Shown: one piece after another, positions 9,962 to 52,849 of the stretch
Layout: each line of letters begins with the position of its first letter
Position numbering within the stretch: the stretch's first letter is position 1
NCBI GenBank assembly: GCA_041658605.1
Contig: JBAZZU010000003.1
Coordinates: 23,354 to 87,353, forward strand
Direction of reading: 5' to 3'
Length of the DNA stretch: 64,000 nt
Origin: Thermoleophilia bacterium
Lineage (GTDB): Bacteria; Actinomycetota; Thermoleophilia; BMS3ABIN01
Notes under the pieces: model-generated
Databases searched by the model: none
Seen by the model: the letters and a program-made list of their open reading frames with translations, nothing else
Told to the model about the DNA's origin: nothing
Made by a program: the position numbers and the translations under genes

Positions 9962-11769
9962 ACCAGATCGCGAATCAGCCGGGCGTTCATCTTGACCATT
10001 TGAAGCATAGGTGGGTTCGAGATGAGGACGTGAAACCAGGCACGCGGTTTTATGTGCCTCACCATGAGGAATTGGACGTTCGGTCTGTCAAAGACGGGAA
10101 GGCAGAGGTGGGTTTGGTTGGCCACCCCATCACTGTGGACGTGCCTGAAAAGTCGGTGAAGTACTTTCATGCAGACATGCATGGGCAGTTGAACCACAAG
10201 CCCGATAGTGGCAACGAGCATGTTGACGCCGTAATTAGAGGGGAGGGTGAACACCTCGGCAAGGGCAACGACGGGATCGTTTATCGCCACGGGGAGAAAG
10301 TGGTCAAGGTCTCAACGACCGTCCCTTACCAGCCCTTCAACCGTGGGCAGCACAGGACTCCAGAGGAAGCCCTACGGCATCTTCAAAAGGAGCACGAGGC
10401 CCATACGGCACTCCAGGGGATTCCTGGCGTGCCCGAAGTGGATGGGCAAGAGCATGAGGGGCGATACTGGATGGTTAAGCCGCATCTTTCGCCTACTGGC
10501 GTGGTCGATGAAAAAGAAGCACATCAGGTGCGCGATTCCGTCCGGGCCATGCACGCGAAGGGATGGGTTCTGGGCGATACCGTGCAGGTTGGCCGAGACA
10601 AGTCGGGCGGCATCCAGTTCATGGACCTCGGGTCTGCTCACAAGTCGGATAGCGACTACCAAAGAGAGCACGACGAAGAAAGGTTGGCCTCGTTCTTCCA
10701 TCTTCATCGGTTGAAGTACACGGATCCCCCTGCTGAAGTACAGAAAAAGGAGCGGGTAGCACGCACTCTCCTGGACATGGCCATCAAACACCAGGATCCG
10801 GAAAAGGTCAGGGCGCATCGTATTGAGTGGAAACGACTGGCGAGCGAACACAGGATGAACCTCGTCAGAAAAGACGACTTCGACGGGATGATGGCGTTTG
10901 CGGACATTACCGATGCGATGGAGAAACGGCTTGAAAAGGCCATCTTCCTCAACGGCCAAAAGCGCAACCCCAAGGACTTCGACGAAGCCGCCCTATCTCA
11001 AGGCATCCGCGTGGAGATGGAGCACACCGACGATCCGAAGATCGCGATAGAGATCGCGATGGATCACCTTGCCGAGCGTCCGGACTACTACGATCGGCTG
11101 GAAGAGATGGAAGCGAAGCCGATTCAAAAAGCCATCCTCTCCGGGATCCGCTTTATGTACCTACTACGCAAGTCTCAGCTCAACCTCTTCGACTGGCACG
11201 GCGAACCCGTCCAGCACGAGCACCGCGAGCCGATCCCCACCAGGCCACGCATGGGACCGGGCCCCCTGTTCGCCGAAGAGCGAGCGTCGGCGCCCGTGCA
11301 TGCCCCGCTGCCCCCTATGCCTCCTCCGACCTCGCACACCTTCACCTCCAATATTCACGTCAAGAGCCACCTTCGGCGCCTGCCGTCGGGTGAAGTGGTG
11401 GAGGTAGCCGCGCACGAGAGAACAGCCGATCGGGTAACCCACGACGATCCGAAGCCCCGGCAGACGAAGATCACAGAGTACGCCGACAAGCCGGCGCTCT
11501 TGAAGCCGCCTTCCATGGCACCGCAGCCCCGAGAGATGCCGAAGCCCTTCACGGAAGAGCAGTTAAAAGCGATTGGAGAGGCACGGGTGCGCCAAGAGGC
11601 GGCCGGCGGAACTCCGGGACAAGGAAGGCCCTGGGTACGATGGCCCAGCCAACCAGCGCCTCTCTGCTGCGAAAGCGGGGAGACTTGGGCCCGCGCACCG
11701 GGCAGCGGCAAAGAGCGCCCCGTGGACCTCGCAGGGCGTCCTGCTCCGATGGCAGCAACTGGCGATTGA
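9958..11769 (+). CDS. Protein-kinase-like domain protein carrying a QLNLF motif
   Basis: Gly-rich loop GEGEHLGKGNDGIVYRHGEKVVKV (GxGxxGxV...VxK), hinge-like RYWMVKPHL, degenerate catalytic loop HAKGWVLGD and DLG (DFG-like) motif. QLNLF at aa ~407. The last ~65 aa of this frame have low GC3 and are probably not coding. Confidence 0.5.
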   Translation: MNQIANQPGVHLDHLKHRWVRDEDVKPGTRFYVPHHEELDVRSVKDGKAEVGLVGHPITVDVPEKSVKYFHADMHGQLNHKPDSGNEHVDAVIRGEGEHLGKGNDGIVYRHGEKVVKVSTTVPYQPFNRGQHRTPEEALRHLQKEHEAHTALQGIPGVPEVDGQEHEGRYWMVKPHLSPTGVVDEKEAHQVRDSVRAMHAKGWVLGDTVQVGRDKSGGIQFMDLGSAHKSDSDYQREHDEERLASFFHLHRLKYTDPPAEVQKKERVARTLLDMAIKHQDPEKVRAHRIEWKRLASEHRMNLVRKDDFDGMMAFADITDAMEKRLEKAIFLNGQKRNPKDFDEAALSQGIRVEMEHTDDPKIAIEIAMDHLAERPDYYDRLEEMEAKPIQKAILSGIRFMYLLRKSQLNLFDWHGEPVQHEHREPIPTRPRMGPGPLFAEERASAPVHAPLPPMPPPTSHTFTSNIHVKSHLRRLPSGEVVEVAAHERTADRVTHDDPKPRQTKITEYADKPALLKPPSMAPQPREMPKPFTEEQLKAIGEARVRQEAAGGTPGQGRPWVRWPSQPAPLCCESGETWARAPGSGKERPVDLAGRPAPMAATGD

Positions 11770-12466
11770 CCCTCGCCTGTTGGATGATGAGTTCGCCGAC
11801 GACTTCCCCGGATACAAGAGCCCGAAGCTCCAGGCGGTCATCCAGGCCACGAAGGACCACCTGACGAATCACCCCGAAACCGGCGCCGTGCTTTTCTGTG
11901 AGTACAACGGCGGGATTGAGGCGATGAAGTCGAGCCTGATCGAGGAAGGCTACCGCCCCGAGGACATCGGGGTCTATACGGGCAAGGTGTCAAGCCAGCG
12001 GAAACGGCGCGACCTTCAGAACGACCTGAACAGCGGCAAGATCAAGATCCTCCTTGGCAACACGGCGGCACTTGAGACGGGCGCGAACCTCCAGAAACGC
12101 GCTAACTTTGTCGCTCATCTCAACACGCCATGGGCCCCGGATCGGCTTGTCCAGTCAACCGGGCGAGTCCATCGGCAAGGGCAGGAACGGAAGGTTACCG
12201 TATTTCGCCCGACCGGATCCGAGGTAGAAGAACTCATCGAGCGCGTTGTCTCGCGCAAGCTCCTTCAATCCTCACAGGCGACCGGCGTAACGATGGCCGC
12301 TGACTCTCATGTAGCTGTCTCCATGCGCCGAAAGGGCCGCGAAAAGCTCGACTCCTCCACGATCGCGAAACTGCTGGGAATCGACCCGTCGCTGTTGTCG
12401 CAGAAGGGCGATGAAGCAGAACGCGAGGCCGCAGAGATCAAGGAAATGAAGAAGAGGAAGAAATGA
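11573..12466 (+). CDS. SNF2-family helicase C-terminal lobe (orphan, possibly fused to upstream ORF by frameshift)
   Basis: Helicase-C motifs GKIKILLGNTAALETGANL and QSTGRVHRQGQ (motif VI). No SNF2 N-lobe upstream in any frame. TTG start right after an in-frame TAA. Overlaps 9958..11769 by 197 nt. Confidence 0.5.
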   Translation: MERHGCAKRRPAELRDKEGPGYDGPANQRLSAAKAGRLGPAHRAAAKSAPWTSQGVLLRWQQLAIDPRLLDDEFADDFPGYKSPKLQAVIQATKDHLTNHPETGAVLFCEYNGGIEAMKSSLIEEGYRPEDIGVYTGKVSSQRKRRDLQNDLNSGKIKILLGNTAALETGANLQKRANFVAHLNTPWAPDRLVQSTGRVHRQGQERKVTVFRPTGSEVEELIERVVSRKLLQSSQATGVTMAADSHVAVSMRRKGREKLDSSTIAKLLGIDPSLLSQKGDEAEREAAEIKEMKKRKK

Positions 12467-14184
12467 ACGACTCCGAAGCCACGAATCTCCTGCGCGCCTT
12501 GGCCCCCGTCGGTGGGTCTCCTGGTGGGTTCGACCCCAAGAAGCGCCGCGTGCTCGTCATGCGGCTTCATCGGTATCTGGTGGAGGATGGCGGCTACATC
12601 CCAGCGTGGCTCAAGAACGAGGCGGCCGAGATGCGGAAGGGCGTGATCCTTTACGTCGAGTTGCACAAGGCCGCTCAACTTGGGCTCTTCGGTGGTCAGG
12701 GTCGGGAGTTTCGCCCGGAGGTGCCGAAGCCGCATGGTGGTGGTAAGCCTCGTGGGCCGCAGCAGACCGGGATGACCTCGGGCGGGCTCTTCGGCACGGT
12801 CTGGGTCAAGGACCATGATCGGGTGGTGAATGGGCACGTCGAGCACGTTGACGGTCATGAGAGGAAGGTGGTGGGGAATGTCCACGCGCCCACGTTGACA
12901 GGAAAGGAGGAAGGTGGTAGGGTCGAGAGTGAACCTTCTCCGAAAGAGGAAAGCATGACCCGGCACCCTGACGCTCCGGAAGGATTCGAACCGGTTGACA
13001 TGTCCATTCATGGAGCCCATAAGGCACCATCGAACGAAAAGGGGCAACAGGGCTCTTTCAACTACTGGTATCCGACGCTGGAATCGGCTCGGGCAGGCCA
13101 GAAGCACCATGAAGAGCAGCAACGAGTAAAGGGGGATATGAAGCGGGCGCGGGAACATGAGAAGATCGCTCGCGGATCGGCAAAGTTCATTGAGGCTGAA
13201 ACTCAACGAAGAGCAAAACTCGCGGCGGCAGAGATTCGGCGCACCGCTGTTCCTTTTGTTCACCCGAGTATCTATGAATATCGGGACTACATCAGAGAGC
13301 AGGGTGGTTTCGTGGAAGATGGTGGGTGGAAGGTGCCAGCCGCAGCTCACGCCGCCATTACGGAGCACATCGAGGAGCGGAATCGGAAATTGGCCATCAA
13401 GCGCCAAACGAAGCCATCAGTAACCCCACCGGTTCCGGCCGCACTGAAATACATACCCATACAGCACTCGAACACCTACGACTATCGGGAAGACATCAAG
13501 AAAGCCGGTGGTCGGTGGGACAATAACCAGCGGGTCTGGATGGTCCCGGAAAACAGGCATGCCGAACTAATCGCCAAGATGACGCCTGCGCCTGCGCCCC
13601 CTCCCGCAGCTCCTTTGCCGACGATCGCACCAGGAGAAAAGGAATACACCAGATTTGAGAATGGATCGCGTCGTATGAAGCCCGCTCATCCGTTGGCTGT
13701 CGGAGACGTGGTGTTTCGAGGGGATGGCGCAAACCGAACTTACCAGACGGTCACGAAAGTAAGGCCTTCGCTCTTCCGTTCCGAAAACGATCAGGAGGAC
13801 TTTGGAGAAACCGGAAGAGGTGCAGGTTGGTATCATCCGTATACCGTTCGACCTGCTACTGAGGAGGAATCGGCCAACCTCCGCGGCAAGCACGCAGAAG
13901 CAGACGCAAAGGTCAAGGCTGCGACTGCCGCAAAAATGGCGCTACAGTCAGCCATCCAGACGGCGGAATATCCGAAGAAGGCTGAACCATCAGGAGAGAG
14001 CATCAAGATTGGTCAAAATGAAACAATTCAGGTTGAGCCAGACCTTCAACACGCGTGGCACATCAAGTATAACGGTCGTGATGGCGACAACTGGGCCTAC
14101 AACAACCTGGGCGGCCACTCGATCGCGCATCGGTTCCCAATGACTCCTGAACTATCAGGACACATCGAAGCGCTGAAAGTCTAA
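12463..14184 (+). CDS. Hypothetical protein (573 aa) with QLGLFGG motif and two tandem ~40-aa repeats
   Basis: ATGA overlap with the upstream gene. KAAQLGLFGG...RVVNGHVEHV module shared with 16185..18518. Repeats YEYRDYIREQGGFVEDGGWKVP / YDYREDIKKAGGRWDNNQRVWMVP. Confidence 0.5.
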   Translation: MNDSEATNLLRALAPVGGSPGGFDPKKRRVLVMRLHRYLVEDGGYIPAWLKNEAAEMRKGVILYVELHKAAQLGLFGGQGREFRPEVPKPHGGGKPRGPQQTGMTSGGLFGTVWVKDHDRVVNGHVEHVDGHERKVVGNVHAPTLTGKEEGGRVESEPSPKEESMTRHPDAPEGFEPVDMSIHGAHKAPSNEKGQQGSFNYWYPTLESARAGQKHHEEQQRVKGDMKRAREHEKIARGSAKFIEAETQRRAKLAAAEIRRTAVPFVHPSIYEYRDYIREQGGFVEDGGWKVPAAAHAAITEHIEERNRKLAIKRQTKPSVTPPVPAALKYIPIQHSNTYDYREDIKKAGGRWDNNQRVWMVPENRHAELIAKMTPAPAPPPAAPLPTIAPGEKEYTRFENGSRRMKPAHPLAVGDVVFRGDGANRTYQTVTKVRPSLFRSENDQEDFGETGRGAGWYHPYTVRPATEEESANLRGKHAEADAKVKAATAAKMALQSAIQTAEYPKKAEPSGESIKIGQNETIQVEPDLQHAWHIKYNGRDGDNWAYNNLGGHSIAHRFPMTPELSGHIEALKV

Positions 14185-14186
14185 TC

Positions 14187-14465
14187 GTGCTGCTTCTTTT
14201 CGTTCTCCTCCTCTCCTGCGCCCCAGAACCGCCAGAAGTCTGCAATATGGTCTCCGTGCCCTGGGAGCGCTCGACGCTCAAGGCGATCGAGGTTTACCTC
14301 GACTACCTGCCCTGTGAGGCCACGATCGGCTGCGAGTCGCTTAACGGGACCGTGACGATTTACGACCTGGAGCCCGTTTGCGGAGTCGCCTGCCGGGTAT
14401 ACGGATCCTGCCGCCCGGACGAAACGCCGCTGGAACTTCGATACTCCGCGTGCGACTGCTCATAG
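14187..14465 (+). CDS. Cys-rich putative lipoprotein (92 aa)
   Basis: GTG start. Signal peptide LLLFVLLLSC with lipobox L-L-S-C. 9 further Cys. Tail-to-tail 6-nt overlap with the antisense methyltransferase. Confidence 0.4.
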   Translation: MLLLFVLLLSCAPEPPEVCNMVSVPWERSTLKAIEVYLDYLPCEATIGCESLNGTVTIYDLEPVCGVACRVYGSCRPDETPLELRYSACDCS

Positions 14466-15272
14466 CAGCGTAGTTTGCTCCCGCTCCTCATCCTGGCCCA
14501 TTGGCAGACCTATCTGAACGCCAGCGGCCTCGATGCTCTCCAACCTGCGCGCCGCGATGTCGAGATAAGCCGGCTCCGTCTCGATCCCGATGTACTGGCG
14601 CCCAGAGAGTAATGCAGCCTCTCCGATGGCCCCAGAACCTGCGAAAGGGTCAAGGACCGTGCCGCCATGGGTCACGACGGAAACGAGCCACGCGCAGACC
14701 CTTGGGGGCTTTTCGGTGACGTGCTCGCGGTCCCTTGAAGACGCCTCGGTGACGTAACCGGGCAGGCAGCCGATCCCTGGTCTGTCGGTCGGCATCGGTC
14801 CAAGGGTTCCGACGGCGATGAATTCGCCCGGGTTCCAGAACCAGCCCATCCGAGGCCTTGACGATCCGGGAGGCTTCAACCACGGGTGGATCCCGCGAAG
14901 GATGAACCCGCCCACTTGGAGCGCATCACAGACCGCGCCAACCTGCCGCCAGTCGGAAAAGACGCATGCCGGACTGCCGGGGAGCATGACCCGAGTCGCA
15001 CGGGCCGCAATCTCCCCAAGCCAGATCGTGAAGGATCGCTGGTCTCGGTTGTCGCCTGCGAAGTTCGGAAGGTATTCGGCCTGCGCGGAATCGGAGCTGA
15101 GATACTTCTTGCGGGTGTCTAGCGTTCGATCACCACGGAAGGCACCCCCCGAAGAGTACGGGGGATCCGTGATCAGGGCGTCAACGCGGACGCGTTCGCG
15201 TTCGAGATCCGCGAGTACGAACAGGGAGTCGCCGTTGTAGAGTTTCCAGGTCTTTCCTTGGGCGTGTAGCAT
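14460..15272 (-). CDS. Beta-class DNA methyltransferase (N6-adenine or N4-cytosine)
   Basis: Motif IV LITDPPYSSGG near the N-terminus and motif I DPFAGSGAIG near the C-terminus (IV before I gives beta class). Confidence 0.8.
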   Translation of the reverse strand: MLHAQGKTWKLYNGDSLFVLADLERERVRVDALITDPPYSSGGAFRGDRTLDTRKKYLSSDSAQAEYLPNFAGDNRDQRSFTIWLGEIAARATRVMLPGSPACVFSDWRQVGAVCDALQVGGFILRGIHPWLKPPGSSRPRMGWFWNPGEFIAVGTLGPMPTDRPGIGCLPGYVTEASSRDREHVTEKPPRVCAWLVSVVTHGGTVLDPFAGSGAIGEAALLSGRQYIGIETEPAYLDIAARRLESIEAAGVQIGLPMGQDEEREQTTLL

Positions 15273-15437
15273 GGTGGAAGTGTAACACGTTGCATGGAGA
15301 GGTCAAGGTGGCACGGTCTTTGCTACACCTTTCAGTGAAAGGAAAGACCATGGAAACCCTCATCGCGGCGGGATCGGCTCCGGCCATCCTCATGTCGAGT
15401 TCTTCGTTCCCGTCTACCGAATCCACGCGAGCAAGCC

Positions 15438-15653
15438 ATGACCTGCCCCCGCTGCCACCAGCAATTCACCCCGACAGCAGAGGAGTCCAAGTGCCCCGAC
15501 TGCGAGCGGGAGATCCTTCGTCGCAGGTACGAGATCGCCAGGATCCGCCGACATGGCGAGACCTGGCTTCTCGTCTCCCCGCGCCATGTTCTCGCGGGTG
15601 GGTTCGCCTCGCGCGAGCAGGCCGAGAGGTTCCGTTCCGCCAGGGTGGGGTAG
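15438..15653 (+). CDS. Small zinc-ribbon protein (71 aa)
   Basis: CPRC...CPDC pair. Lies divergent from the methyltransferase across a 165-bp intergenic region. Confidence 0.4.
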   Translation: MTCPRCHQQFTPTAEESKCPDCEREILRRRYEIARIRRHGETWLLVSPRHVLAGGFASREQAERFRSARVG

Positions 15654-15660
15654 ATCCGGA

Positions 15661-16158: not shown

Positions 16159-16184
16159 AGAGGTAACACCATTCGAGGGTTCCC

Positions 16185-18518
16185 ATGCACCTCTATCGCC
16201 CCGTTCGATCCGCTGACGGTTCTCTTTCGCTACGTGCCTCGGAACTGGTCTTCCGTCGCCCCGATGTGGCCCCCCGCGAGCTGCGCAAGGCCCTTCGTCT
16301 TCCGATCGGCATCGGCTGGCGTGACATCGACCAGGACGTGGACGGTGGCAAGGAGAAGAGGATCGTGGAGTGGGGAACGGTCTCCCGCTACTGGCCCTCA
16401 CTCGAAGCCGCCATGGCCGCAGAACGGCGCTACCTGATCCTCGGGTCGCAGGATGACGGCTACGGGATTCCCCAGGTCGAGCGGCCCGGGTCGGTCCAGG
16501 CCTGGGAAGCACGGGAGCGCGCCCGTTCGGCTCATGAGATGGTGATCTACTACTCGCCCGACGGGTGGACGGCTCTTGCTGGTGACGAGCACGGTGGGCA
16601 GGTCAAGGTGCTCGACGACTGCCGCGCGTACCGCTGGCCCTCGCTCATGGACGCGCTCTCTGCTGAGACGGCGTGGAGAGAGAAGGCGGACGCCGCGACC
16701 CTCAAACAGGTCCAGGCCGAAGCGCGCGGTGGAGAACCGAAGCCTTCGTTCTACGGTTACGGCGCGTTCATGGACGCGGCGCGGAAGTGTGCGGAGTTCA
16801 TGGCGCTTGCGGATCCGGGTGTCGGGGCGCCTCTCGTTCGGTTCACGGTGGACCTTCGCAAGGCCGCTCAAATGGGGTTGTTCGGAGGGGAGACACGGAT
16901 CCCGGAGCGGTCGCATCAAATGGGCCTCTTCGGTGGGACCGCGCACGTCAAGGCGCATACCCGGGTGGTCCATGGGCATGTGATCGAGGTGAAGGCCCAT
17001 GATCGGGAGGTCGAGCATGGGGCGAACCATCCTCCCGAGGTGATGGGGCACTCGGCGCCGGGACATCGGGTGGATGTGGATGCGAAGGTGGCATGGCCAG
17101 AAGTCAAAGAAGGCAACCTGTACCGCATCCATTTCGACACCCGCGACGAAGGCCAGCCGCACGGCGACTATATCGCCAAACGAGCCTCGACGAATCATCA
17201 CCAGTTCGAGAACCTTCTCAACGGCGCCCCCATGATGTTGAACCGGGATGCGGAAGGGCAGGGGAAGCACAGTCTGAGCGGCAAGGAAGGTGTCAGGATC
17301 CGAAGCGTTACAGGGTTTGAGGATGCTCTGGATGAGGCGAAAGCCAAGCATGAGATCATCCGAAAGGACGCGGAACGGGCGGCTTTGGCACCGAAGGTTG
17401 AGGAGAAGCCCTCCATTTCCGTCGATCCGGCCCAAATCGTCAAACCAGCGGACATTCAACCACCGGGCCCCATTCGTGACTACACCGACATGAAGCCATC
17501 GGTCGGTATGAAGGTTCACGGGCACTACATGCGGTCACCCTTCACCGGCACGGTCCATAACATCGAATCCGACTCAAGCGGATACCCTGGCACCCAGAAC
17601 GATCGCAGGTTGTGGGTGAAACTTGATAGCCCCCTGGTGGTCCCGGAAGGTGATTCGTCATACCCCGCCGGTCACGTTCGGCGCGAGGCAGGGGAAAGCA
17701 TCATTTTCCACGGGGAAAAACAGGCGTCAGGACATACACGGGTTCATCATGACACCCATCAAACCCTGGATTCGGTAGATAATCCGCTTCCTGGGTTGGT
17801 GCCCTTCGTAACAGACTACGATTCACGAAAGAAAACCCATACCCTGTCCGTGAACGGGAAGATGTCGAGCCATCCGACGCATGAAGCCGCGTTTGCTGCG
17901 GGGATGGAGGAGGTCAAGCCCACAACGCAACTTATCACCGAAGATGAGCTGAGAGAGCAGACCATCAAGCCCCCACCCAAGCCCACCCTATCCGTCAAAC
18001 CTGCGGAAATCGTTCAGGTTATACCGGGTATGGAGCACGAACATCCGGACTTTCCAGGCCACCGGTTGACCCGTGTGCAAACCCGGGAGAGGGACATCAG
18101 TTCCCGTGGTCGGGGACATGATTTATACACAATGATTGCCGGCCCAGAAGATGACACAATGCACTGGAGCGACAAGCATGTTGGCCATGAAGTAATTTCG
18201 GACGATTATCCAAGGTCAAGGTCCATACGATCAAGCGATAGACATGGTGAAACCTATGCGCATATGCCGCTCAAGCCCGGTAGTGTGATTATGCGTCTCA
18301 AAAAGAATACCGACGGGACAACCCAGAAGTCTGCGTTAGTTGTTCCGGAAAGTGGAGGAGACACATACCCAAGACACAAAGATCAACCACTGGACGCCGA
18401 TAGTTTGCCGTCTGCAACGGTAACCTCACGCAAAGCGGCTACTGGATGGGAAACTGTAGTAGATATCCCCGAAGGGATATCGGGTGTCAAGGCTGGTAAG
18501 CGAATTTACCGAGGATAG
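16185..18518 (+). CDS. Hypothetical protein (777 aa) with two QMGLFGG motifs; paralog of 12463..14184 module
   Basis: KAAQMGLFGG...HQMGLFGG...RVVHGHVIEVKAHDREV parallels the 12463 protein. His-rich C-terminal half with lower GC. Confidence 0.5.
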   Translation: MHLYRPVRSADGSLSLRASELVFRRPDVAPRELRKALRLPIGIGWRDIDQDVDGGKEKRIVEWGTVSRYWPSLEAAMAAERRYLILGSQDDGYGIPQVERPGSVQAWEARERARSAHEMVIYYSPDGWTALAGDEHGGQVKVLDDCRAYRWPSLMDALSAETAWREKADAATLKQVQAEARGGEPKPSFYGYGAFMDAARKCAEFMALADPGVGAPLVRFTVDLRKAAQMGLFGGETRIPERSHQMGLFGGTAHVKAHTRVVHGHVIEVKAHDREVEHGANHPPEVMGHSAPGHRVDVDAKVAWPEVKEGNLYRIHFDTRDEGQPHGDYIAKRASTNHHQFENLLNGAPMMLNRDAEGQGKHSLSGKEGVRIRSVTGFEDALDEAKAKHEIIRKDAERAALAPKVEEKPSISVDPAQIVKPADIQPPGPIRDYTDMKPSVGMKVHGHYMRSPFTGTVHNIESDSSGYPGTQNDRRLWVKLDSPLVVPEGDSSYPAGHVRREAGESIIFHGEKQASGHTRVHHDTHQTLDSVDNPLPGLVPFVTDYDSRKKTHTLSVNGKMSSHPTHEAAFAAGMEEVKPTTQLITEDELREQTIKPPPKPTLSVKPAEIVQVIPGMEHEHPDFPGHRLTRVQTRERDISSRGRGHDLYTMIAGPEDDTMHWSDKHVGHEVISDDYPRSRSIRSSDRHGETYAHMPLKPGSVIMRLKKNTDGTTQKSALVVPESGGDTYPRHKDQPLDADSLPSATVTSRKAATGWETVVDIPEGISGVKAGKRIYRG

Positions 18519-18521
18519 CCC

Positions 18522-21500
18522 ATGTTCACCCCCTGCAAGTGCTCCAAAGGCTGCAAGGCCCACGCCATCATCACAGCGCTCGACATGGACGGGACCACCT
18601 ACCCTGTGCGAGTCCCCTATGAGCACCGCTACTCCTCGATCGGCTGGGGCGACCGTCCGCGCGTGCGGTTCGGTGATTCCGTAGCCGTCGAAGTGGCGCG
18701 CGGAGAGAAGGGCGTCCAGGCTCTTGACGAACTCGGCAACCTTCACCGGTTGAACCATGGCGCGTTCTCCACCTGGATTCCGGAAAGGAAGGGCAAGGCT
18801 CTCAAAAAGGCGGAAGTCAAAGCCGGTCAACGATGGATCACGGTCCACCCCGGCGGCGAAGGCTCAACGGGCGTCCCCATCCTGATTCAGGAGGAGAAGG
18901 ACGGAACCCACCGAGTCGTGGCAGGCGCGGGCGGGAAACTGACGCACCTCCGGCTTGAGAACGTCAAGAGCGCGGACGAATACGCCAAGTCCAAAGCCGA
19001 CAAGAAGGCCGCAAAGAAAGAGAAGGACAAGACCGCTCCGAAGGAAGTCAAGGAGACCAAGAAGGAAGCCCACGAGAAGAAGCGCGAGGCCGAGCGCCAG
19101 TTCGTCAAAAAGGTGAGCACGAAACTCGGGGGAGTCTCCGAGGATCGCAAGCGTGACGAATCCGAATCTCCCGCCGTCGCACGTCGGCTTGACGCGCAGC
19201 ATCATCGAAAGCAGGTCAACGAGGCCAAGAAGCGCGCCCACGGAGCCATGCAGGCGGTCGTTGCAGAGCGGACCGGGCAGGAGAGGGCAAAGGCGCTCAC
19301 CTCCGAGGATACTCCCGAGGTCTCCGCTCACGTTCAGGAAACGATTCGCGCAGAACTCGACGACGAGGAAGCCGCTCAGAAGGCGCGCAAGGAAGCCCGC
19401 GCGCCAAAGATGATGGCCTCCCGGGCCGTGGACCCCGGAGCGCAAGAGAAAGCCGTCGTCCATGCCGTTGAAGCGGTCAAGCAGGCCCCTGAGCAGCTCG
19501 ACAAGACACTTGAAGCGCTCGGCGGGCGTACTGACTCGGGCGAGGTTCTCCGGCTCTCTGTCGTGCCTGCCGTGGAGGCGAAACGCCGGTCCCTGCAAGC
19601 GCTCCAGGACGCCCAGATCATCCATGAAGCCCTATCGAACGGGCCCCCGAAAGACGAGAAGCAGCAGGCGATCGTGGAGCAGGCCCTGGGCGGCGCGAAA
19701 CTCGGAACCGAGGAGGCCAAGGAAGCACTCCAGACCGCCATGGTCTCGAAGGTCAACGAAGCCGAGCGGCACGAAGTCCAGTCCAGGAAGCTCGACCAGA
19801 TCGCACGGGACAAGGGCGAAGACGTGGCCGACCGTGCTCTCCGGGCGACCGACGCGGCAAGGGCCATCGCTCGCGAAACACAGGAAGCGCGGCGCCTGGG
19901 ACTCGACAATCCCGAGAAGACGCCCCTTACTGTGCCTGAAACCGATGAACTCATGGACGTGGTGAAGGACCTCCAGGACCTGAAAGCGAAGACCCGAGCC
20001 CTGAAGAACGTCGTCAAGGACGCGGAAAAGGGCAACTTCGATCGGTCGCGCCGTGCGTTCAAGATGGACGTTCAAGCGGCCCCCAAAGACGTGGAGATGT
20101 CGATCGAGGAAGAGGTTCAGCGCTCACTCACGGAGCAGCTCCTCGGCGCGGTCAAGACCGATCGCCCGGAGTACATCCAGGGCGTCACCGCTGGGCACTA
20201 TGACGCCCTCGCGGATGTCGGCTTGCAGATTGGCGGCCAGCGCTACCTGGACCGCCCCACGGTGGACGCTCTCGGCGCGAAGAATGCCGCGATCCTACTC
20301 CGGTATGGGCTTGACCAGGACGGGCACGATATGGACGCCGTTCGCCAGGCCGTGGAAGAGTCGCACGTTGACGCGGTGAAAACCGAAGCCGCCAAAGCCA
20401 TCGAGAAAGCGCGATCCTACGTCCCTGGGTTGGTCCACGAAGTCGATACAACCGAAGACGCCGAAGCAGCAATGGCGCACTTGGACGCCCACGAATCCGA
20501 GATCGTCTCAGCGCAGAAGGCCCTTTCCTCGGCGATCGGGAGGCTCGAAGGTACGGCTACCCTTGGCCAGGCGCTGCGCGACAAGATGCCCGATAGCCTT
20601 TCCGTTCGGGGCACCTCTCTTGAATCGTCTCAGCAGTGGGTTCATTCGCTCGGGCTTCACCCTGCCGATTACGAGGTGAACGCTGCACGGAACGAGATTA
20701 CGATCCCCCGCCGATCGTGGGACAAACTGCTATCCCGAGACTCGCGCGAGGACATCGACAACCGGCGCGTGGTCAACGAGATCAAGGCAGGTCAGCACGA
20801 CATCAAGGGTTGGCTTCCTCCCGGCATTGCCTATCGAGAGGCCTCCACGTTCACCGCGCCCGTTCCCAGCGCTCCTCGCATGTGGGAACCGCTTTCGTTC
20901 GATGGCGACCTCGACGAGGCCATCAAGACACACGTCGGCGCCCGGTTGGCATCCGGTGAGCATATCGGGGAGATTGCGTCTGACATCTCCTCGGAAGGTG
21001 TTGCTTCGCAGGCCCCGAGCGCGAAGGAATACCGCGCGGCACTCGAGCGGCACTTCCCTCTCTACAAGGAAGGTGGAAAGGAACGGCTCACCGAAGCCCT
21101 GGCGGCTCTTGGACCTCGGCCGGAGAACGAGAACGAGGCGATCGAGTGGGACCGAAAAGCCATTAAGGCGGAGCAAGCGGAAAAGGTAGGCCTGACGCAC
21201 TTCGCCGACAAGTGGGAGTCCTGGGCCCAGGACTACATGGAAAAGAAGCACGGTGGCGAGGGAGCCTATCACTCGCAGAACCTGCATCCCGAGGACGTGG
21301 CGACCCGTGAGGCCATTTTCCGGACGCTGGCGGATCACCCGGAGGGCAAGATCGCCTTCAAGCCGTCGGGTCAACTGACACCGCAGGAAGAGGGGGTGAT
21401 TCGGGACCGGTACTATCAGAGGATGGGGATCGACCCGAAGGTGAAGGTTGACGAGGCAAGGTTCCAAAGGGAGATGGCCCAGGCCAGTATGCCGGAAGGG

Positions 21501-24224
21501 CAGTGGGAGACCATGGTCAAGGAACACGAAGGAGAAGGCATAACTCCAGGGCAGGCCAAGGCCCGAGCCATGTCTCACCTTGGAGAGAAGGTCAAGAATG
21601 AGGCGTATTACCAAGAACTGACGAAACCATGGGACAAGACGGCTGGAACTGCATCTATAGACGAACCAAAGGATGTAAAACAACGTCGCCAATACCTGAC
21701 GCGCGAACTCGCCGCACTCGGGAAAGAGCCCGACCGCCAAGACAAAGAGGCCAACCAGAAATGGCAAGAAGCGCGTAATGCTGTTTTTGAAAAGGCCGAC
21801 ACCGATTCTGGCAAGGAAGAACTTGATGAGACCAGTCCCGAATACCGGGCTTGGCAAAAACGACGTGATGCTGTTCTTGCCCGTCATCCGCGAGCGGGTA
21901 TGCAAAGCGCAATCGATAGTCTCGACAAAGCCGATCCGGAGTACGCAAGCAAAGTCGAAGCCATCAAACAGGACGCAGCGACCGCCCCCACCGCCTGGGG
22001 CAACTACGTTGAAGCGCACGGTTCGCGGCAACTGGCGATCGAGGCCCTGCAAGATGAGATGAGGGGCGAATTCGTCAAGACGTACCAGGAGCACCACGGA
22101 AAGGTCACCGGGAACCCGCTACGGGTGGGCGTTCAGGACGTAACCAACAAGGCGCGCCATATCCGGGCAACAGGATCCCCCGAGGAAATCGCGCAAGCCA
22201 GGGCAGAGGAAAGGTCCAGGCTATCCAGTCTCCAGAAGAGGCAGGGCGGCGGATTTACCGAGATGGGCGGTGCAGGGTCGGCGAAAGCCCTGTTCACAAA
22301 AGCACTTGAACAAGACGAAATCGACAAGTCAAGTCAACTCGCTATGTTCGGATCGGCTACCTCCTCGGTGGCGGACCTCCCCGAAAAGAAGATCGAGCCG
22401 AAGACCGGCCAGCGGTGGAGTCTCGGAACCCGCGCGGAATCGCAACTTGAGAGCGTCATCAATGGCGGCCTGGGCCAGCAGTTTCAACCAGGAAGCCCGA
22501 TCCGGCTTTTCGGTGGGCTCAACATGGATGGCGATCGAATCCACCAGCAGCGGGTTCTTCGCCAACTCGATCGGGTCAAAAGGATGGCGGCGCTTCTCGG
22601 CACGGGCGCGGGGAAGTCGCTCACCTCGATCGCAGGGTTCACCCAGGCGCACGCGAAGGGTGAGGCATCCCACGGGCTCTATCTGGTCCCTGCCGCAGTC
22701 CAAGACCAGTTCGGCGGCGAGATGTTGCGCTACACGCAGCCCGGGAAATACAACTGGGCAACGGGTGGCGGAAAGAGCCACGCGGAACGGGTACGGATGC
22801 TCAAGGATCCGTCTATTCATATGCGGGTTATGACACACCAGTCCTTCCGGGATACTGCCCTAAAACTCATGGCAGACCACCATGGTCGGACTACCGAGAA
22901 GATGACAGAGGACTTCGGAAAGGCAGACCCAAAGACCCGCGCCCGGTGGATGCGTGAGGCCTTCGATGCCCACGGGATCCCCCGCCACTTCGTCTATTAT
23001 GACGAGGCGCACACCGCGACCTCCGAGAACGAGAAGAGCGCCTCTCTGACTCATGACGTTGCGACGGCGGTAACGCATCCGTCGAACGCTACCCATCTGC
23101 TTCTCGGGACCGCCACCCCCACGAAGAACAACACCGGAGAGATGCACTCATGGGCCTCGCTACTCGATCCGGACAAGTACGCCGATCGGTGGAAGTTCAT
23201 GCAGAACTTTGGGAGGGAAACCGCCTGGAACCCGAACGCGATCCGTCAAGAACTTGGGCACCGGGTTTACACCGCCAGAATCGACCCCGAAGGAGTATCC
23301 CGAACAGACACCGACAACCCGACCGTGGAGGAAAAGGAAGTCCAGACTGGTGAGAATATGTGGGGTCCAACCTACGAAAAGCAGAAGGTGAAGTCTGCCG
23401 GCAAGCCGATCGAACTTCACCCTACCCAGAAGGCCCGGGTAGATGAGATCACGGCGGCTTATGAGCAGGCATCCACCTCGTTCAAGAAGGGCCATGTGGA
23501 CGTGGAGAGCATCCGGAAAATCAACCCGGCACCGTTCGAGGGTAAGACCGATGAGCAGGCCCAAAGCATCGCGCGGAACATGATGAAGGGCCTTGGCTTC
23601 ACCCGTGACGCGGCGCTGGAGCGGGCGATCAACCGCTCGCCTGTGGGCCAGAACGCGAAACTGGACGCCCTGGCCTCTGTCGTCCAGCATGACCTCGCGC
23701 AGAACTGGACCGATCGGAAAGGCAACGCGCGCAAGGGGAAGGCCTCGATCATCTTTTCGGACTCGGCGCAGGATGGAAAACTCATCAACCAGCACCTTCG
23801 CTCTCTTGGCGTCCGCTCGGCTTTCTATCACGGTGGGCTTCCGAACGAGCAGAAAGAAGCCATCCGCACCGGGTTCCAACCCGAGCAAGGCGAGCCGAAG
23901 CACGACGTTATCGTCGCCACGTCGGCGGCCGAGGCGGGTCTGAACCTCCAACGGGCAAGCGTGCTGCACAATTACGACGTGCCCCAGACTGAGAAGAGCC
24001 ACGCGCAGAGAGCCGGGCGAGCGTACCGGCAGGGGCAACTTGGCGACGTGGAGATTCACAACTGGCACACGAACACGGCGTTCGAGCGTCGGGCGCTTCA
24101 ACTGCTCAAGGAGAAGCGGTATCTCGCTTCCGTGTTTCAGACTCCGATCGGCCATATGGACGACACAGGAACGGGCCTGCGTTATACTCGGATCATCTCA
24201 CGCAAACATGAGGCTGCGGCATGA
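18522..24224 (+). CDS. Giant 1900-aa protein with C-terminal SNF2-family helicase (polyvalent/DarB-like)
   Basis: Complete SF2/SNF2 core: Walker A GTGAGKSLT, DEAH (YYDEAHTA), motif III LLGTATPTKNNTGEMHSWASLLDP, helicase-C with QRAGRAYRQGQ. Long Lys/Glu coiled-coil N-terminal 1300 aa. QLAMF motif just before the helicase. Confidence 0.7.
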   Translation: MFTPCKCSKGCKAHAIITALDMDGTTYPVRVPYEHRYSSIGWGDRPRVRFGDSVAVEVARGEKGVQALDELGNLHRLNHGAFSTWIPERKGKALKKAEVKAGQRWITVHPGGEGSTGVPILIQEEKDGTHRVVAGAGGKLTHLRLENVKSADEYAKSKADKKAAKKEKDKTAPKEVKETKKEAHEKKREAERQFVKKVSTKLGGVSEDRKRDESESPAVARRLDAQHHRKQVNEAKKRAHGAMQAVVAERTGQERAKALTSEDTPEVSAHVQETIRAELDDEEAAQKARKEARAPKMMASRAVDPGAQEKAVVHAVEAVKQAPEQLDKTLEALGGRTDSGEVLRLSVVPAVEAKRRSLQALQDAQIIHEALSNGPPKDEKQQAIVEQALGGAKLGTEEAKEALQTAMVSKVNEAERHEVQSRKLDQIARDKGEDVADRALRATDAARAIARETQEARRLGLDNPEKTPLTVPETDELMDVVKDLQDLKAKTRALKNVVKDAEKGNFDRSRRAFKMDVQAAPKDVEMSIEEEVQRSLTEQLLGAVKTDRPEYIQGVTAGHYDALADVGLQIGGQRYLDRPTVDALGAKNAAILLRYGLDQDGHDMDAVRQAVEESHVDAVKTEAAKAIEKARSYVPGLVHEVDTTEDAEAAMAHLDAHESEIVSAQKALSSAIGRLEGTATLGQALRDKMPDSLSVRGTSLESSQQWVHSLGLHPADYEVNAARNEITIPRRSWDKLLSRDSREDIDNRRVVNEIKAGQHDIKGWLPPGIAYREASTFTAPVPSAPRMWEPLSFDGDLDEAIKTHVGARLASGEHIGEIASDISSEGVASQAPSAKEYRAALERHFPLYKEGGKERLTEALAALGPRPENENEAIEWDRKAIKAEQAEKVGLTHFADKWESWAQDYMEKKHGGEGAYHSQNLHPEDVATREAIFRTLADHPEGKIAFKPSGQLTPQEEGVIRDRYYQRMGIDPKVKVDEARFQREMAQASMPEGQWETMVKEHEGEGITPGQAKARAMSHLGEKVKNEAYYQELTKPWDKTAGTASIDEPKDVKQRRQYLTRELAALGKEPDRQDKEANQKWQEARNAVFEKADTDSGKEELDETSPEYRAWQKRRDAVLARHPRAGMQSAIDSLDKADPEYASKVEAIKQDAATAPTAWGNYVEAHGSRQLAIEALQDEMRGEFVKTYQEHHGKVTGNPLRVGVQDVTNKARHIRATGSPEEIAQARAEERSRLSSLQKRQGGGFTEMGGAGSAKALFTKALEQDEIDKSSQLAMFGSATSSVADLPEKKIEPKTGQRWSLGTRAESQLESVINGGLGQQFQPGSPIRLFGGLNMDGDRIHQQRVLRQLDRVKRMAALLGTGAGKSLTSIAGFTQAHAKGEASHGLYLVPAAVQDQFGGEMLRYTQPGKYNWATGGGKSHAERVRMLKDPSIHMRVMTHQSFRDTALKLMADHHGRTTEKMTEDFGKADPKTRARWMREAFDAHGIPRHFVYYDEAHTATSENEKSASLTHDVATAVTHPSNATHLLLGTATPTKNNTGEMHSWASLLDPDKYADRWKFMQNFGRETAWNPNAIRQELGHRVYTARIDPEGVSRTDTDNPTVEEKEVQTGENMWGPTYEKQKVKSAGKPIELHPTQKARVDEITAAYEQASTSFKKGHVDVESIRKINPAPFEGKTDEQAQSIARNMMKGLGFTRDAALERAINRSPVGQNAKLDALASVVQHDLAQNWTDRKGNARKGKASIIFSDSAQDGKLINQHLRSLGVRSAFYHGGLPNEQKEAIRTGFQPEQGEPKHDVIVATSAAEAGLNLQRASVLHNYDVPQTEKSHAQRAGRAYRQGQLGDVEIHNWHTNTAFERRALQLLKEKRYLASVFQTPIGHMDDTGTGLRYTRIISRKHEAAA

Positions 24225-49613: not shown

Positions 49614-49626
49614 TGCGGAGATGAAC

Positions 49627-50348: not shown

Positions 50349-50350
50349 CA

Positions 50351-50379
50351 GCGACCGCATAGGATCGCTATACGGTCGC
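50351..50379. terminator. Bidirectional hairpin at convergent junction
   Basis: 12-bp stem GCGACCGCATAG / CTATACGGTCGC (1 mismatch), 5-nt loop. No clean T-tract. Confidence 0.35.
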
Positions 50380-52830: not shown

Positions 52831-52849
52831 GTTGGCTCCTTGAAAAGAA

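What the first reader, a model, noticed from the sequence alone, without database searches (positions are those of the whole stretch)
11176..22349. Recurrent QLxLF pentapeptides (beta-sliding-clamp-binding consensus) in four adjacent cargo proteins
Four adjacent cargo proteins carry QLxLF-type pentapeptides:
- SQLNLF in the kinase-like protein (~11176..11190).
- AAQLGLFGG in the 573-aa protein (~12676..12690).
- AAQMGLFGG and HQMGLFGG in the 777-aa protein (~16869..16883 and 16917..16931).
- SQLAMFGS just N-terminal to the SNF2 domain of the 1900-aa protein (~22335..22349).

These match the bacterial beta-clamp-binding motif QL[SD]LF. E. coli Pol II ends in QLGLF and UmuC uses QLNLF. Five hits in four neighbouring proteins is unlikely by chance. 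The proteins may dock onto the host (or phage) sliding clamp at replication forks to be recruited to DNA, or to poison host replication. A weaker QESLF occurs in the ChaB protein.
Basis: partly seen in the sequence, partly recalled or inferred. Interest (0 to 1): 0.85.

Follow-up and report, generated by a model that had tools for sequence, protein, structure and literature searches.

The report
Clamp-binding-like motifs in phage head effectors
Four large proteins encoded among the head genes of a roughly 96-kb phage carry short exposed Q-L-x-L-F peptides that are far too frequent and too conserved to be chance and that match the docking peptide for the bacterial DNA sliding clamp, a clamp this phage also encodes itself, so its virion-associated effector enzymes may ride on the clamp; binding has not been tested.

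Summary
Five Q[LM]x[LM]F pentapeptides lie in four proteins, against 0.24 expected in the window's 64 proteins. There are none elsewhere in about 83 kb of the roughly 96.6-kb phage genome, and none for reversed or substituted control patterns.

The motif is a selected short linear motif, not a DNA repeat:
- Homologues of the 1900-aa SNF2 protein in about 65 of 72 viral loci keep Q-[ML]-G-[FLM]-F at the same position, next to a hypervariable linker.
- 41 of those helicases also end in Q-x-x-[LM]-[FL]-COOH, against 0.34 expected.
- Neighbouring DarB-like methylase-helicases start with MIILLxKxQLxLFD.

In three window proteins the motif sits inside a larger unit, not represented in Pfam, PHROGs or the PDB: a hydrophobic strand, K-A, QLxLFGG, and a His/Arg beta-hairpin. 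That unit also occurs without QLxLF in the HD-domain protein encoded in the PHB04 head module.

The same phage encodes a DnaN-type clamp 371 bp beyond the window, and its peptide-binding pocket residues are conserved.

My best explanation is a beta-clamp-binding motif, with confidence about 0.5. The rivals are a capsid-targeting peptide, another binding partner, or a protease site. No binding data exist.

The parts
9958..11769 (+). 603-aa protein (p603): N-terminal kinase-like region (homologous to part of polyvalent protein P0009), DUF5661, then the strand/QLNLF/hairpin unit
   Evidence: ORF; Pfam DUF5661 at aa 346-387, E=1.5e-11; P0009 sequence
11143..11172 (+). Hydrophobic strand GIRFMYLLRK preceding the motif in p603
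   Evidence: aligned with the equivalent strands of p573 and p777
11176..11190 (+). QLNLF (aa 407-411), identical to the E. coli UmuC clamp motif
   Evidence: PMC3716654
11260..11280 (+). Second, degenerate LF element (GPLFAEE) in the Pro-rich linker of p603
11353..11424 (+). His/Arg beta-hairpin element IHVKSHLRRLPSGEVVEVAAHERT of p603
12463..14184 (+). 573-aa protein (p573) with the unit near its N-terminus and a weak Pfam match to DUF5710 (a second similar stretch at about aa 271-296 by eye)
12640..12669 (+). Hydrophobic strand GVILYVELHK of p573
12676..12690 (+). QLGLF (aa 72-76, context KAAQLGLFGG), identical to the E. coli Pol II C-terminal clamp motif
   Evidence: PMC3716654
12781..12795 (+). 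Second LF element (GGLFG) of p573, directly before the hairpin
12799..12870 (+). His/Arg beta-hairpin VWVKDHDRVVNGHVEHVDGHERKV of p573
   Evidence: AF2 predicts strands at aa 120-129 and 132-141, at low confidence
16185..18518 (+). 777-aa protein (p777); its N-terminal 300 aa are 37% identical to metagenomic protein P0016
16833..16862 (+). Hydrophobic strand LVRFTVDLRK of p777
16869..16883 (+). First QMGLF (aa 229-233, context KAAQMGLFGG); P0016 has KAQQLSLFG at the same position
16917..16931 (+). Second QMGLF (aa 245-249, context HQMGLFGG), 16 aa after the first; P0016 has QQVGLF at the same position
16941..17012 (+). His/Arg beta-hairpin AHVKAHTRVVHGHVIEVKAHDREV of p777
18522..24224 (+). 1900-aa SNF2-family protein (p1900), homologous over aa 94-1884 to the 1518-aa helicase of Bordetella phage PHB04
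22335..22349 (+). QLAMF (aa 1272-1276) in the linker before the SNF2 core; the position is conserved as Q-[ML]-G-[FLM]-F in about 65 of 72 viral homologues
22542..24035 (+). SNF2/DEAD helicase core plus Helicase_C of p1900 (aa 1341-1838)
   Evidence: Pfam; the PHROG 62 match extends to aa 1873
9608..9622 (+). QESLF in the 456-aa protein. It is identical to the M. smegmatis DinB1 clamp motif, but it is a single hit followed by hydrophobic sequence and is not significant alone
   Evidence: PMC9346131
2..1609 (+). Context: terminase large subunit (5' end cut by the window)
   Evidence: PHROG 675, E=9e-55
2799..4508 (+). Context: portal protein
   Evidence: PHROGs; 27% identity to the PHB04 portal
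4505..5638 (+). Context: MuF-like head protein (CPxC ... HPNC)
   Evidence: BLASTP E=8e-6 to an annotated Mu-F related protein
25716..26393 (+). Context: possible scaffold, inferred from position and size only
   Evidence: Weak DivIVA-like Pfam hit; no PHROG hit; sits directly before the capsid gene, as does a 223-aa ORF in PHB04
26425..28026 (+). Context: major head protein
   Evidence: PHROG 752, E=3.5e-22

Best explanation
The Q-[LM]-x-[LM]-F pentapeptides are real, selected short linear motifs. They are carried on flexible linkers of large effector proteins encoded in the head-gene block, between portal/MuF and the major capsid gene, of a roughly 96.6-kb phage.

Most likely they are beta-sliding-clamp-binding motifs. 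The Gln would dock in subsite 2 and the Leu-Phe pair in the hydrophobic subsite 1 of a DnaN-type clamp. The clamp could be the phage's own DnaN homologue, encoded 371 bp beyond the window end, or the host clamp. Docking would tether the SNF2 helicase and the other effectors to clamp-loaded DNA. Tandem copies would raise avidity or engage both clefts of the clamp dimer.

What is shown:
- the motifs exist, are enriched and are conserved;
- their position in the protein is mobile across homologues;
- a phage clamp with conserved pocket residues exists.

What is inferred:
- physical binding to the clamp;
- which clamp is used;
- virion packaging of these proteins;
- the biological payoff (processive action on phage or host DNA).

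The flanking 'hydrophobic strand, K-A, ... His/Arg beta-hairpin' unit is a separate element of this protein class. It also occurs without QLxLF, and it may serve packaging or act as a domain junction.
For: 1. Enrichment and specificity: 5 observed against 0.24 expected, and controls give 0. All five copies fall in four head-module proteins across about 83 kb examined.
2. Match to the consensus: QLNLF equals UmuC, QLGLF equals Pol II, and the consensus is QL[S/D]LF (PMC3716654).
3. Conservation as an island: in 72 viral homologues of p1900 the motif column is Q[SA]Q-M-G-F-F, QLGMF, QMGLF, QMALF or QVALF. Entropy is 0.21 bits for Q and 0.57 for F, against 2.3-3.2 bits in the linker that follows. 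In p777 versus P0016 both tandem motifs are kept while the linkers carry indels.
4. Positional mobility, typical of clamp motifs: residue 9 of PHB04-type DarB-like proteins (MIILLTKAQLALFD...), internal linkers, and extreme C-termini. 41 helicases end in Q-x-x-[LM]-[FL]-COOH against 0.34 expected, for example ...QPQMGMF and ...SQDSLF. The 54%-identical homologue P0017 ends ...QANLFGGG...NDLFG.
5. Dissociation from the generic unit: in PHB04 the HD-domain protein has the strand/K-A/hairpin start and the InPase protein has the strand/K-A start, both without QLxLF. The motif is in the methylase-helicase, the SNF2 helicase, a 251-aa protein of unknown function and, as QAELF, the C-terminus of a Dam-like DNA methyltransferase.
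6. The phage encodes a 355-aa DnaN (Pfam DNA_pol3_beta_2 and _3). Against Salmonella DnaN (31% identity) R152, Y153, L155, T172, G174, R176, L177, P242, R246, V247, N320, Y323, V360, M362, P363, R365 and L366 are all identical. That these residues line the peptide cleft is from my own knowledge of the E. coli structures; Arg-152, Gly-174 and Pro-363 are named in PMC3716654.
7. Capsid and scaffold-position proteins of the window phage and PHB04 are not BLAST-detectably similar, yet the pentapeptide consensus is the same. This fits a universally conserved receptor.
8. Other mobile-element proteins are reported to use the clamp: IS transposases (PMC4549789) and phage Mu MuC (PMC12867686) (titles and abstracts).
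Against: - There is no binding or structural evidence. A complex prediction was not possible with the tools, and the single-sequence AF2 model of p573 has mean pLDDT 41 and says nothing reliable about exposure.
- In three of the four window proteins the motif is embedded in a longer homologous unit, so part of the recurrence is shared ancestry rather than independent selection.
- p603 (kinase-like), p573 and p777 have no demonstrated DNA-related activity.
- PHB04 conserves the motifs but has no DnaN of its own, so a phage clamp is not required.
- All motif-bearing window proteins are encoded in the head module. Targeting signals for proteins packaged into capsids are also short terminal peptides (the P1 DarB N-terminal 30 residues, PMC9024508), so a capsid-targeting role would give a similar pattern.
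- How clamps would be present on freshly injected DNA is unclear.
Confidence: 0.5

Rival explanations
1. Capsid-targeting or cargo-loading peptide. The Q-L-x-L-F peptide, alone or with the strand/hairpin unit, would bind a phage head component (scaffold, MuF, portal or the inner capsid surface) and direct the effectors into the procapsid. This would be analogous to the T4 capsid-targeting sequence, the N-terminal 30 residues of P1 DarB, or encapsulin cargo-loading peptides.
For: - All motif-bearing window proteins are encoded between portal/MuF and the capsid gene.
- In PHB04-type phages the unit is at residue 1-35 of the DarB-like protein.
- P1 DarB has an experimentally defined N-terminal capsid-targeting signal (PMC9024508).
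- Terminal peptides on flexible linkers are how encapsulin cargo is loaded (my own knowledge).
Against: - Other PHB04 head-module proteins (HD, InPase, phosphatase, RelA/SpoT-like) lack QLxLF although the first two share the N-terminal strand/K-A signature. If there is a generic packaging signal, it is more likely that signature.
- In p1900 and about 65 homologues the motif is about 900-1300 aa from the N-terminus and is duplicated at the C-terminus.
- There is no similarity to the P1 DarB N-terminus, and no strict motif in any P1 Dar protein.
- Capsid proteins have diverged beyond BLAST detection while the pentapeptide keeps the exact clamp consensus.
- A looser QAELF sits 4 residues from the C-terminus of a PHB04 Dam-like methyltransferase encoded outside the structural module.
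Confidence: 0.2
2. A docking peptide for a different partner. Possibilities are another replisome or repair protein recognising acidic tails that end in a hydrophobic residue (in the manner of the SSB C-terminal tail), or an intramolecular regulatory contact with the SNF2 motor.
For: - Helicase C-termini are acidic or Gln-rich tails ending in LF, which resembles SSB and T7 gp2.5/gp4 tails (the comparison is from my own knowledge).
- The internal motif sits at the end of a conserved stretch (a helix by my reading of the sequence, not predicted) just before the SNF2 core.
Against: - Gln lies exactly 5 residues from the C-terminus in roughly 70% of tails, and it is invariant in the internal and N-terminal copies. 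This is the clamp-motif spacing, not the SSB-tail pattern.
- This phage's own SSB ends DDDPVPF, a different pattern.
- Internal copies cannot use a free carboxylate.
- The motif also occurs in proteins without an SNF2 domain (p573, p777, p603).
Confidence: 0.15
3. Proteolytic maturation site. ...LFGG/ would be cut by a head or polyvalent-protein peptidase to release domains, as proposed for MPTase-containing polyvalent proteins.
For: - The units lie at domain junctions of polyvalent proteins P0007, P0009 and P0011.
- Iyer et al. 2017 propose processing of such proteins (PMC5512222).
- LFGG resembles the LxGG sites of papain-like proteases (my own knowledge).
Against: - 41 homologues carry the motif as the last 5-6 residues, where there is nothing to cleave off.
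- The residue after F varies (G, D, S, A or the end of the protein).
- No protease was detected among the window's head genes by Pfam or PHROGs.
Confidence: 0.05
4. No specific function. The recurrence would reflect only common descent of a duplicated linker module, or chance.
For: Three of the copies belong to a homologous roughly 70-100-aa module (p573 versus p777 E=2.7e-10).
Against: - Q and F are the only invariant residues of the module besides a turn Gly.
- The same pentapeptide recurs in non-homologous contexts and at termini.
- Codons differ between copies.
- 0 of 2000 shuffles reached the observed count.
Confidence: 0.03

Closest known systems
Bacterial beta-clamp-binding motif (Dalrymple consensus QL[S/D]LF; E. 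coli Pol II QLGLF-COOH, UmuC QLNLF, Pol III alpha QADMF; M. smegmatis DinB1 QESLF)
   Same: - Same pentapeptide pattern, including exact identities to UmuC and Pol II.
- Gln and Phe are invariant.
- The residue at position 3 is small or polar.
- It occurs at N-termini, in internal linkers and at extreme C-termini, often in tandem.
- Many carriers (SNF2 helicases, methylase-helicases) are DNA enzymes.
   Different: - The carriers are head-module, presumably virion-delivered, effector proteins rather than polymerases or repair factors.
- Three window copies are embedded in a strand/hairpin unit not known from clamp clients.
- Binding is untested.
Phage-type polyvalent proteins and the P1 DarB methylase-helicase (Iyer et al. 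2017, PMC5512222)
   Same: - Very large proteins next to portal/MuF and capsid genes.
- Relatives that carry the same unit contain InPase, ART-PolyVal, LPD1 and C5 or N6 methylase domains, and SNF2.
- PHB04 has a DarB-like N6-methylase plus SNF2 protein.
   Different: - The window proteins are mostly single-function genes rather than one polyprotein.
- p1900 has SNF2 but no detectable methylase.
- P1 DarB itself lacks the motif.
- A text search of the 2017 survey found no mention of 'clamp', 'linker' or 'short motif'.
Capsid-targeting sequences (T4 internal proteins; the N-terminal 30 residues of P1 DarB, PMC9024508) and encapsulin cargo-loading peptides
   Same: Short peptides on flexible linkers of proteins destined for an HK97-type shell; N-terminal in PHB04-type DarB-like proteins.
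   Different: - No sequence similarity.
- The motif is often internal or C-terminal and is duplicated.
- It is absent from several co-encoded head-module proteins.
Mobile-element proteins reported to use the host clamp (IS transposases, PMC4549789; phage Mu MuC, PMC12867686)
   Same: A selfish element's protein using the clamp; for the transposases a direct interaction with the beta clamp is reported. Both are cited from titles and abstracts only.
   Different: Here the carriers are several structural-module effectors, and the phage also brings its own clamp.

Membership tests
Beta-clamp-binding motif (CBM) clients | Pentapeptide matching QL[S/D]LF, or more generally Q-x-x-[LM]-[FL] | tested here: met
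   QLNLF, QLGLF, QMGLF (twice) and QLAMF; consensus and examples from PMC3716654
Beta-clamp-binding motif (CBM) clients | The motif lies in an accessible, flexible or terminal segment | tested here: inconclusive
   - The 30 aa downstream are 57-87% small or polar residues.
- Linkers carry indels in homologues.
- Homologues carry the motif at residue 9 or at the extreme C-terminus.
- The AF2 single-sequence model is too poor to judge (pLDDT 41).
Beta-clamp-binding motif (CBM) clients | The motif is conserved in orthologues as an island within variable sequence | tested here: met
   About 65 of 72 loci; column entropy 0.21 bits (Q) and 0.57 (F) against 2.3-3.2 in the linker; p777 versus P0016
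Beta-clamp-binding motif (CBM) clients | A DnaN-type clamp with an intact peptide cleft is available | tested here: met
   Phage DnaN at L076:8340-9407, which corresponds to about 64371-65438 on the minus strand just outside the window. Pocket residues are identical to Salmonella DnaN.
Beta-clamp-binding motif (CBM) clients | Physical, motif-dependent binding to the clamp | not testable with these tools
   Complex prediction is restricted to window sequences and the clamp gene is outside the window; no wet-lab data exist
Phage-type polyvalent / DarB-like virion effectors | Encoded with head-morphogenesis genes (portal, MuF, capsid) | tested here: met
   TerL, portal, MuF-like, the effector genes, a possible scaffold, then the capsid gene; the same order is seen in PHB04
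Phage-type polyvalent / DarB-like virion effectors | Contains domains characteristic of polyvalent proteins (InPase, ART-PolyVal, LPDs, the methylase-SF2 helicase dyad) | tested here: inconclusive
   Window proteins have only SNF2/Helicase_C, DUF5661 and a weak DUF5710 match. p1900 has no methylase. Relatives sharing the unit (P0007, P0009, P0011, PHB04) have InPase, ART-PolyVal, LPD1 and methylase plus SNF2.
Phage-type polyvalent / DarB-like virion effectors | Incorporated into the virion and delivered with the DNA | not testable with these tools
   Inferred from gene position only
Capsid-targeting sequence (T4 CTS / P1 DarB N30 type) | N-terminal position in the packaged protein | tested here: not met
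   The window motifs are at aa 72, 229/245, 407 and 1272. The feature is met only in PHB04-type DarB-like proteins.
Capsid-targeting sequence (T4 CTS / P1 DarB N30 type) | Sequence similarity to a characterised targeting signal | tested here: not met
   The P1 DarB N-terminus and the other Dar proteins carry no such motif
Capsid-targeting sequence (T4 CTS / P1 DarB N30 type) | Necessary and sufficient for packaging a reporter | not testable with these tools
   Needs phage genetics

The most novel reading that the evidence does not exclude
Virion-delivered anti-defence effectors of a widespread group of phages (SNF2 helicases, DarB-like methylase-helicases and polyvalent proteins) are clients of the sliding clamp. 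A composite module would let them hitchhike on host or phage-encoded beta clamps so that they scan and protect phage DNA processively. The module consists of a hydrophobic strand, K-A, one or two clamp-binding pentapeptides, and a basic His/Arg beta-hairpin. The strand/hairpin part would be a previously uncatalogued junction or packaging unit of this protein class.
Probability: 0.3. Interest if true: 0.8.

Novelty: new variant of a known kind. Interest (0 to 1): 0.66.

Why it matters
If the motifs bind the clamp, the sliding clamp becomes a landing platform for a whole class of phage effector proteins whose way of finding DNA is unknown: DarB-like methylase-helicases, SNF2 motors and polyvalent proteins. 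That would suggest a role for DnaN genes in phages where no polymerase gene is seen. In this phage none was found in the roughly 83 kb examined.

It would also give a simple handle, QL..LF to AA..AA mutants, for testing how such effectors work. PHB04 and Thermus phage Lalka are cultured, so this is practical.

Even if the motif proves to be a capsid-targeting peptide, it would be a compact, portable signal conserved across dozens of uncultured phages, which could be useful for loading cargo into capsids.

The strand/hairpin unit is a recurring element at domain boundaries, has no match in Pfam, PHROGs or PDB sequences, and could improve domain parsing of polyvalent proteins.

Tried and rejected
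- Searches with the word-indexed protein database returned almost nothing: full p777 gave only itself, the p1900 C-terminal 700 aa gave one fragment, and a 13-sequence module profile gave 6 short proteins. The helicase search was limited by candidate saturation.
- The exhaustive HMM search with the 3-sequence module profile gave 16 hits. Nine were real (the three window proteins themselves, P0007, P0009, P0011 and P0016 with the full unit, and P0010 and P0012 with the hairpin only); the rest were zinc-finger or repeat false positives.
- The module has no match in Pfam, and the proteins that carry it have no PHROG hit covering it. A PDB profile search returned only spurious hits.
- Scans of viral and metagenome contigs for relatives of p573 and of the p777/P0016 family found none. 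A module alignment was too variable for pattern scanning. A back-translated KAQQLxLFG DNA pattern gave mostly out-of-frame chance hits.
- There is no nucleotide-level match to any deposited phage.
- The AF2 single-sequence model of p573 aa 1-200 was too poor to judge exposure (pLDDT 41).
- Homology to the P1 DarB capsid-targeting sequence is rejected: no similarity.
- A DNA repeat as the cause is rejected because codons differ between copies.
- A strict link between the motif and a phage-encoded clamp is rejected: PHB04 has the motif but no DnaN.
- Plasmids: the module was not found. Two helicase homologues were found. The one on a Rhodovastum plasmid (probably a phage-plasmid) keeps both motifs; the one on Deinococcus pDGEO02 lacks them.
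- I first suspected a frameshift joining p603 to the Helicase_C ORF. The source's gene calls treat them as two genes, and this remains unresolved.
Full report
**What the window is**

The + strand from 1 to about 50 kb is a phage morphogenesis block.
- It contains the terminase large subunit (2-1609), the portal (2799-4508) and a MuF-like protein (4505-5638; BLASTP E=8e-6 to an annotated Mu-F protein, with the CPxC...HPNC motif).
- A run of large ORFs follows, then a 225-aa ORF that may be the scaffold (25716-26393) and the major head protein (26425-28026).
- The source contig is about 96.7 kb and is labelled a Thermoleophilia MAG. An independent ENA assembly of 96.55 kb appears circularly permuted relative to it, which suggests a complete genome.
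- Nothing similar at the DNA level exists among deposited phages.

All five pentapeptides are at the stated coordinates.
- Against within-protein shuffles of 64 window proteins (20,231 aa), Q[LM]x[LM]F is expected 0.24 times and seen 5 times. 0 of 2000 shuffles reached 5, and the Poisson P is 5e-6.
- Within the four carriers alone the expectation is 0.026.
- Reversed, N- or E-first and Y- or W-last control patterns give zero.
- None occurs in a further 10.7 kb downstream or 8 kb upstream of the window.
- Codons differ between copies, so this is selection on the peptide rather than a DNA repeat.

**The motif sits in a larger unit in three of the four proteins**

- p603, p573 and p777 share a homologous module of about 70-100 aa (p573 versus p777 E=2.7e-10).
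- The module runs: a hydrophobic strand (VRFTVDLRK, VILYVELHK, IRFMYLLRK), then K-A-A, QLGLFGG, a Pro/Gly/Lys-rich linker with a second LF element, and a His/Arg beta-hairpin (HVKAHTRVVHGHVIEVKAHDREV).
- Pfam, PHROGs and PDB sequence profiles have nothing for it.
- An exhaustive profile search of 1.84 billion representatives found it in only a few proteins, all giant phage-type polyvalent proteins. P0007 has InPase, DUF5661, ART-PolyVal, LPD1 and a GHKL ATPase. P0009 has InPase, a kinase-like region resembling p603, and a C5 methylase. P0011 has LPD1. P0016 is a p777 relative.
- In those proteins the unit sits between domains. Some copies have QLxLF (LRKAQMGMFGGPTQEVQIQGHMRRTKSGKAVAVTAH) and some do not (LNKAEAHVKEHFRALPSGKVVLVKEHERK).

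**The pentapeptide is a portable, conserved short linear motif**

- p1900 is homologous over nearly its whole length to the 1518-aa helicase of Bordetella phage PHB04. It also has about 30-35% identical relatives in Thermus phages, Morganella phage Mecenats66 and 72 IMG/VR loci.
- At the column of the window's QLAMF, about 65 of 72 loci have Q[SA]QMGFF, QLGMF, QMGLF, QMALF or QVALF. Extra DDMFGG or DLFG copies often follow in an acidic, length-variable linker.
- Column entropy is 0.21 bits for Q and 0.57 for F, against 2.3-3.2 in the linker.
- 41 of these helicases end in Q-x-x-[LM]-[FL](G)-COOH, for example ...SQDSLF...EEQTSLF and ...QPQMGMF. Only 0.34 are expected among 696 ORFs, and no other ORF class shows this ending.
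- The window's p1900 lacks that tail, but its 54%-identical relative P0017 ends ...FAQANLFGGGPSPSSSANANDLFGRRSAA.
- The neighbouring DarB-like N6-methylase plus SNF2 giants begin MIILLTKAQLALFDTPVHVGAHVRKDGTVVKPHIRIQK...QGSLF. That is the full unit at residue 1 with a second LF after the hairpin.
- p777 and P0016 (37% identity) keep both tandem motifs in place while the linkers gain or lose about 10 residues.
- In a 13-sequence alignment of units, the only invariant residues are the motif's Q and F and the hairpin's turn Gly.

**Two separable elements**

- In PHB04, the HD-domain protein starts IVFLKAQVAGYTRQDGTVVSPYYR and the InPase starts VVLLKAD. Both have the strand/K-A signature and lack QLxLF. 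The helicase, which starts ILFLKAS, carries the motif elsewhere in the protein.
- Genome-wide in PHB04 the strict motif occurs in the helicase, the DarB-like protein and a 251-aa protein, plus one hit in an ORF on the opposite strand that I take to be spurious. About 1.0 is expected. A looser QAELF sits 4 residues from the C-terminus of a Dam-like methyltransferase.
- So the strand/K-A/hairpin unit looks like a generic junction or N-terminal signature of this protein class. QLxLF is an add-on found in DNA enzymes and in one protein of unknown function.

**A clamp is at hand**

- 371 bp beyond the window end the phage encodes a 355-aa DnaN homologue (Pfam DNA_pol3_beta_2 and _3), near SSB, RecU-like and AAA_23 genes.
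- It is 31% identical to Salmonella DnaN overall. R152, Y153, L155, T172, G174, R176, L177, P242, R246, V247, N320, Y323, V360, M362, P363, R365 and L366 are all identical. These are the residues I know to line the peptide cleft; three of them are named in PMC3716654.
- No polymerase gene was seen in about 83 kb.
- Thermus Lalka phages, which carry the helicase, also encode DnaN. PHB04 does not, so the host clamp would have to serve there.

**Interpretation**

The pattern matches published clamp-binding motifs.
- It has an exact Q-h-x-h-F consensus and is identical to UmuC and Pol II (PMC3716654). M. smegmatis DinB1 uses QESLF (PMC9346131).
- Its position is mobile and includes free C-termini.
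- It occurs in tandem copies.
- Its carriers include DNA enzymes.
- It persists while capsid proteins diverge beyond BLAST detection.

I put this reading at about 0.5.

The main rival, at about 0.2, is a capsid-targeting peptide. All window carriers are head-module genes, and P1 DarB has an N-terminal packaging signal (PMC9024508). Against it:
- the P1 signal is unrelated in sequence;
- other PHB04 head-module proteins lack the motif;
- many copies are internal or C-terminal.

A different docking partner is possible (about 0.15). A protease site is unlikely (about 0.05), because nothing can be cleaved off after a C-terminal LF. Chance or pure ancestry is effectively excluded.

A text search of the polyvalent-protein survey found no mention of a clamp or of inter-domain motifs. 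Literature searches found no link between clamps and virion effectors.

**Limits**

There is no binding evidence and no reliable structure. Virion packaging is inferred from synteny. p603, p573 and p777 have no assigned DNA-related activity. About 14 kb of the genome was not examined.

Noticed in passing
Just outside the window, about 64371-65438 on the minus strand (L076:8340-9407): The phage encodes a DnaN-type sliding clamp (355 aa) with conserved peptide-cleft residues. It lies near SSB (C-terminus DDDPVPF), RecU-like and AAA_23/SMC-like genes. No DNA polymerase gene was seen in about 83 kb.
   Followed up: yes
window 11143-11424, 12640-12870 and 16833-17012; PHB04 (L078) N-termini of ATI15650, ATI15645 and ATI15667: A unit with no match in Pfam, PHROGs or PDB sequences: a hydrophobic strand, K-A, and a His/Arg beta-hairpin (V-x-V-K-A-H-x-R-x-x-x-G-x-V-x-V-x-x-H-x-R). 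It recurs at N-termini of head-module proteins and between domains of polyvalent proteins, with or without QLxLF. The hairpin alone also occurs in small signal-peptide-bearing proteins (P0019-P0023).
   Followed up: partly
window 11573-12466 (gene call 11780-12466): A stand-alone Helicase_C lobe (about 228 aa, DarB-like by PHROGs) follows p603 in another frame, with about 200 nt of overlapping open frames. There is no SNF2 N-lobe. It could be a split or degenerate helicase, or a frameshift.
   Followed up: partly
window 8591-9961: The 456-aa protein begins MPYKTVPKHLHGLTLAQANRW, which looks ChaB-like from memory but gives no Pfam hit. It ends ...GVFRMRRKT, which resembles the C-terminus ...KMIMLIRRT of the PHB04 493-aa RelA/SpoT-like protein. 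The strand element may therefore sit at gene ends, as if polyvalent proteins had been split at these junctions.
   Followed up: no
window 14460-15272 (minus strand) and 15553-16158: An N6/N4 DNA methylase on the opposite strand and a DUF1643 gene are inserted inside the otherwise co-directional effector block.
   Followed up: no
window 57199-57576 (minus strand): A 125-aa ORF carries a precomputed Pfam Ribosomal_L12 hit, so the phage may encode an L7/L12-like protein.
   Followed up: no
window 52000-63000 (minus strand): A cluster of radical SAM, DUF5131, SF2 helicase, C5 cytosine methylase and ThyX genes, possibly a DNA-modification or nucleotide module.
   Followed up: no
PHB04 (L078/L079): 48563-49318 and 49469-50485 in the record: Outside the structural module, a 251-aa protein has the strand/hairpin N-terminus plus QLALF, and the divergently transcribed Dam-like methyltransferase ends ...PSPQAELFGSVA. 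These are possible further clamp clients or effector proteins encoded elsewhere in the genome.
   Followed up: partly
L080 compared with the NCBI contig: The ENA assembly (96,554 bp) appears circularly permuted relative to the window's source contig (96,738 bp), which suggests a complete, circular or terminally redundant genome.
   Followed up: no
L095 (Deinococcus geothermalis pDGEO02, 157979-177874): A megaplasmid carries a MuF fragment, a p1900-like helicase without the motifs, a 2H phosphoesterase and a large N6 methylase whose N-terminus reads LLAKA...GMDLFGG. The set is flanked by IS elements and looks like a decayed or repurposed effector cassette.
   Followed up: no
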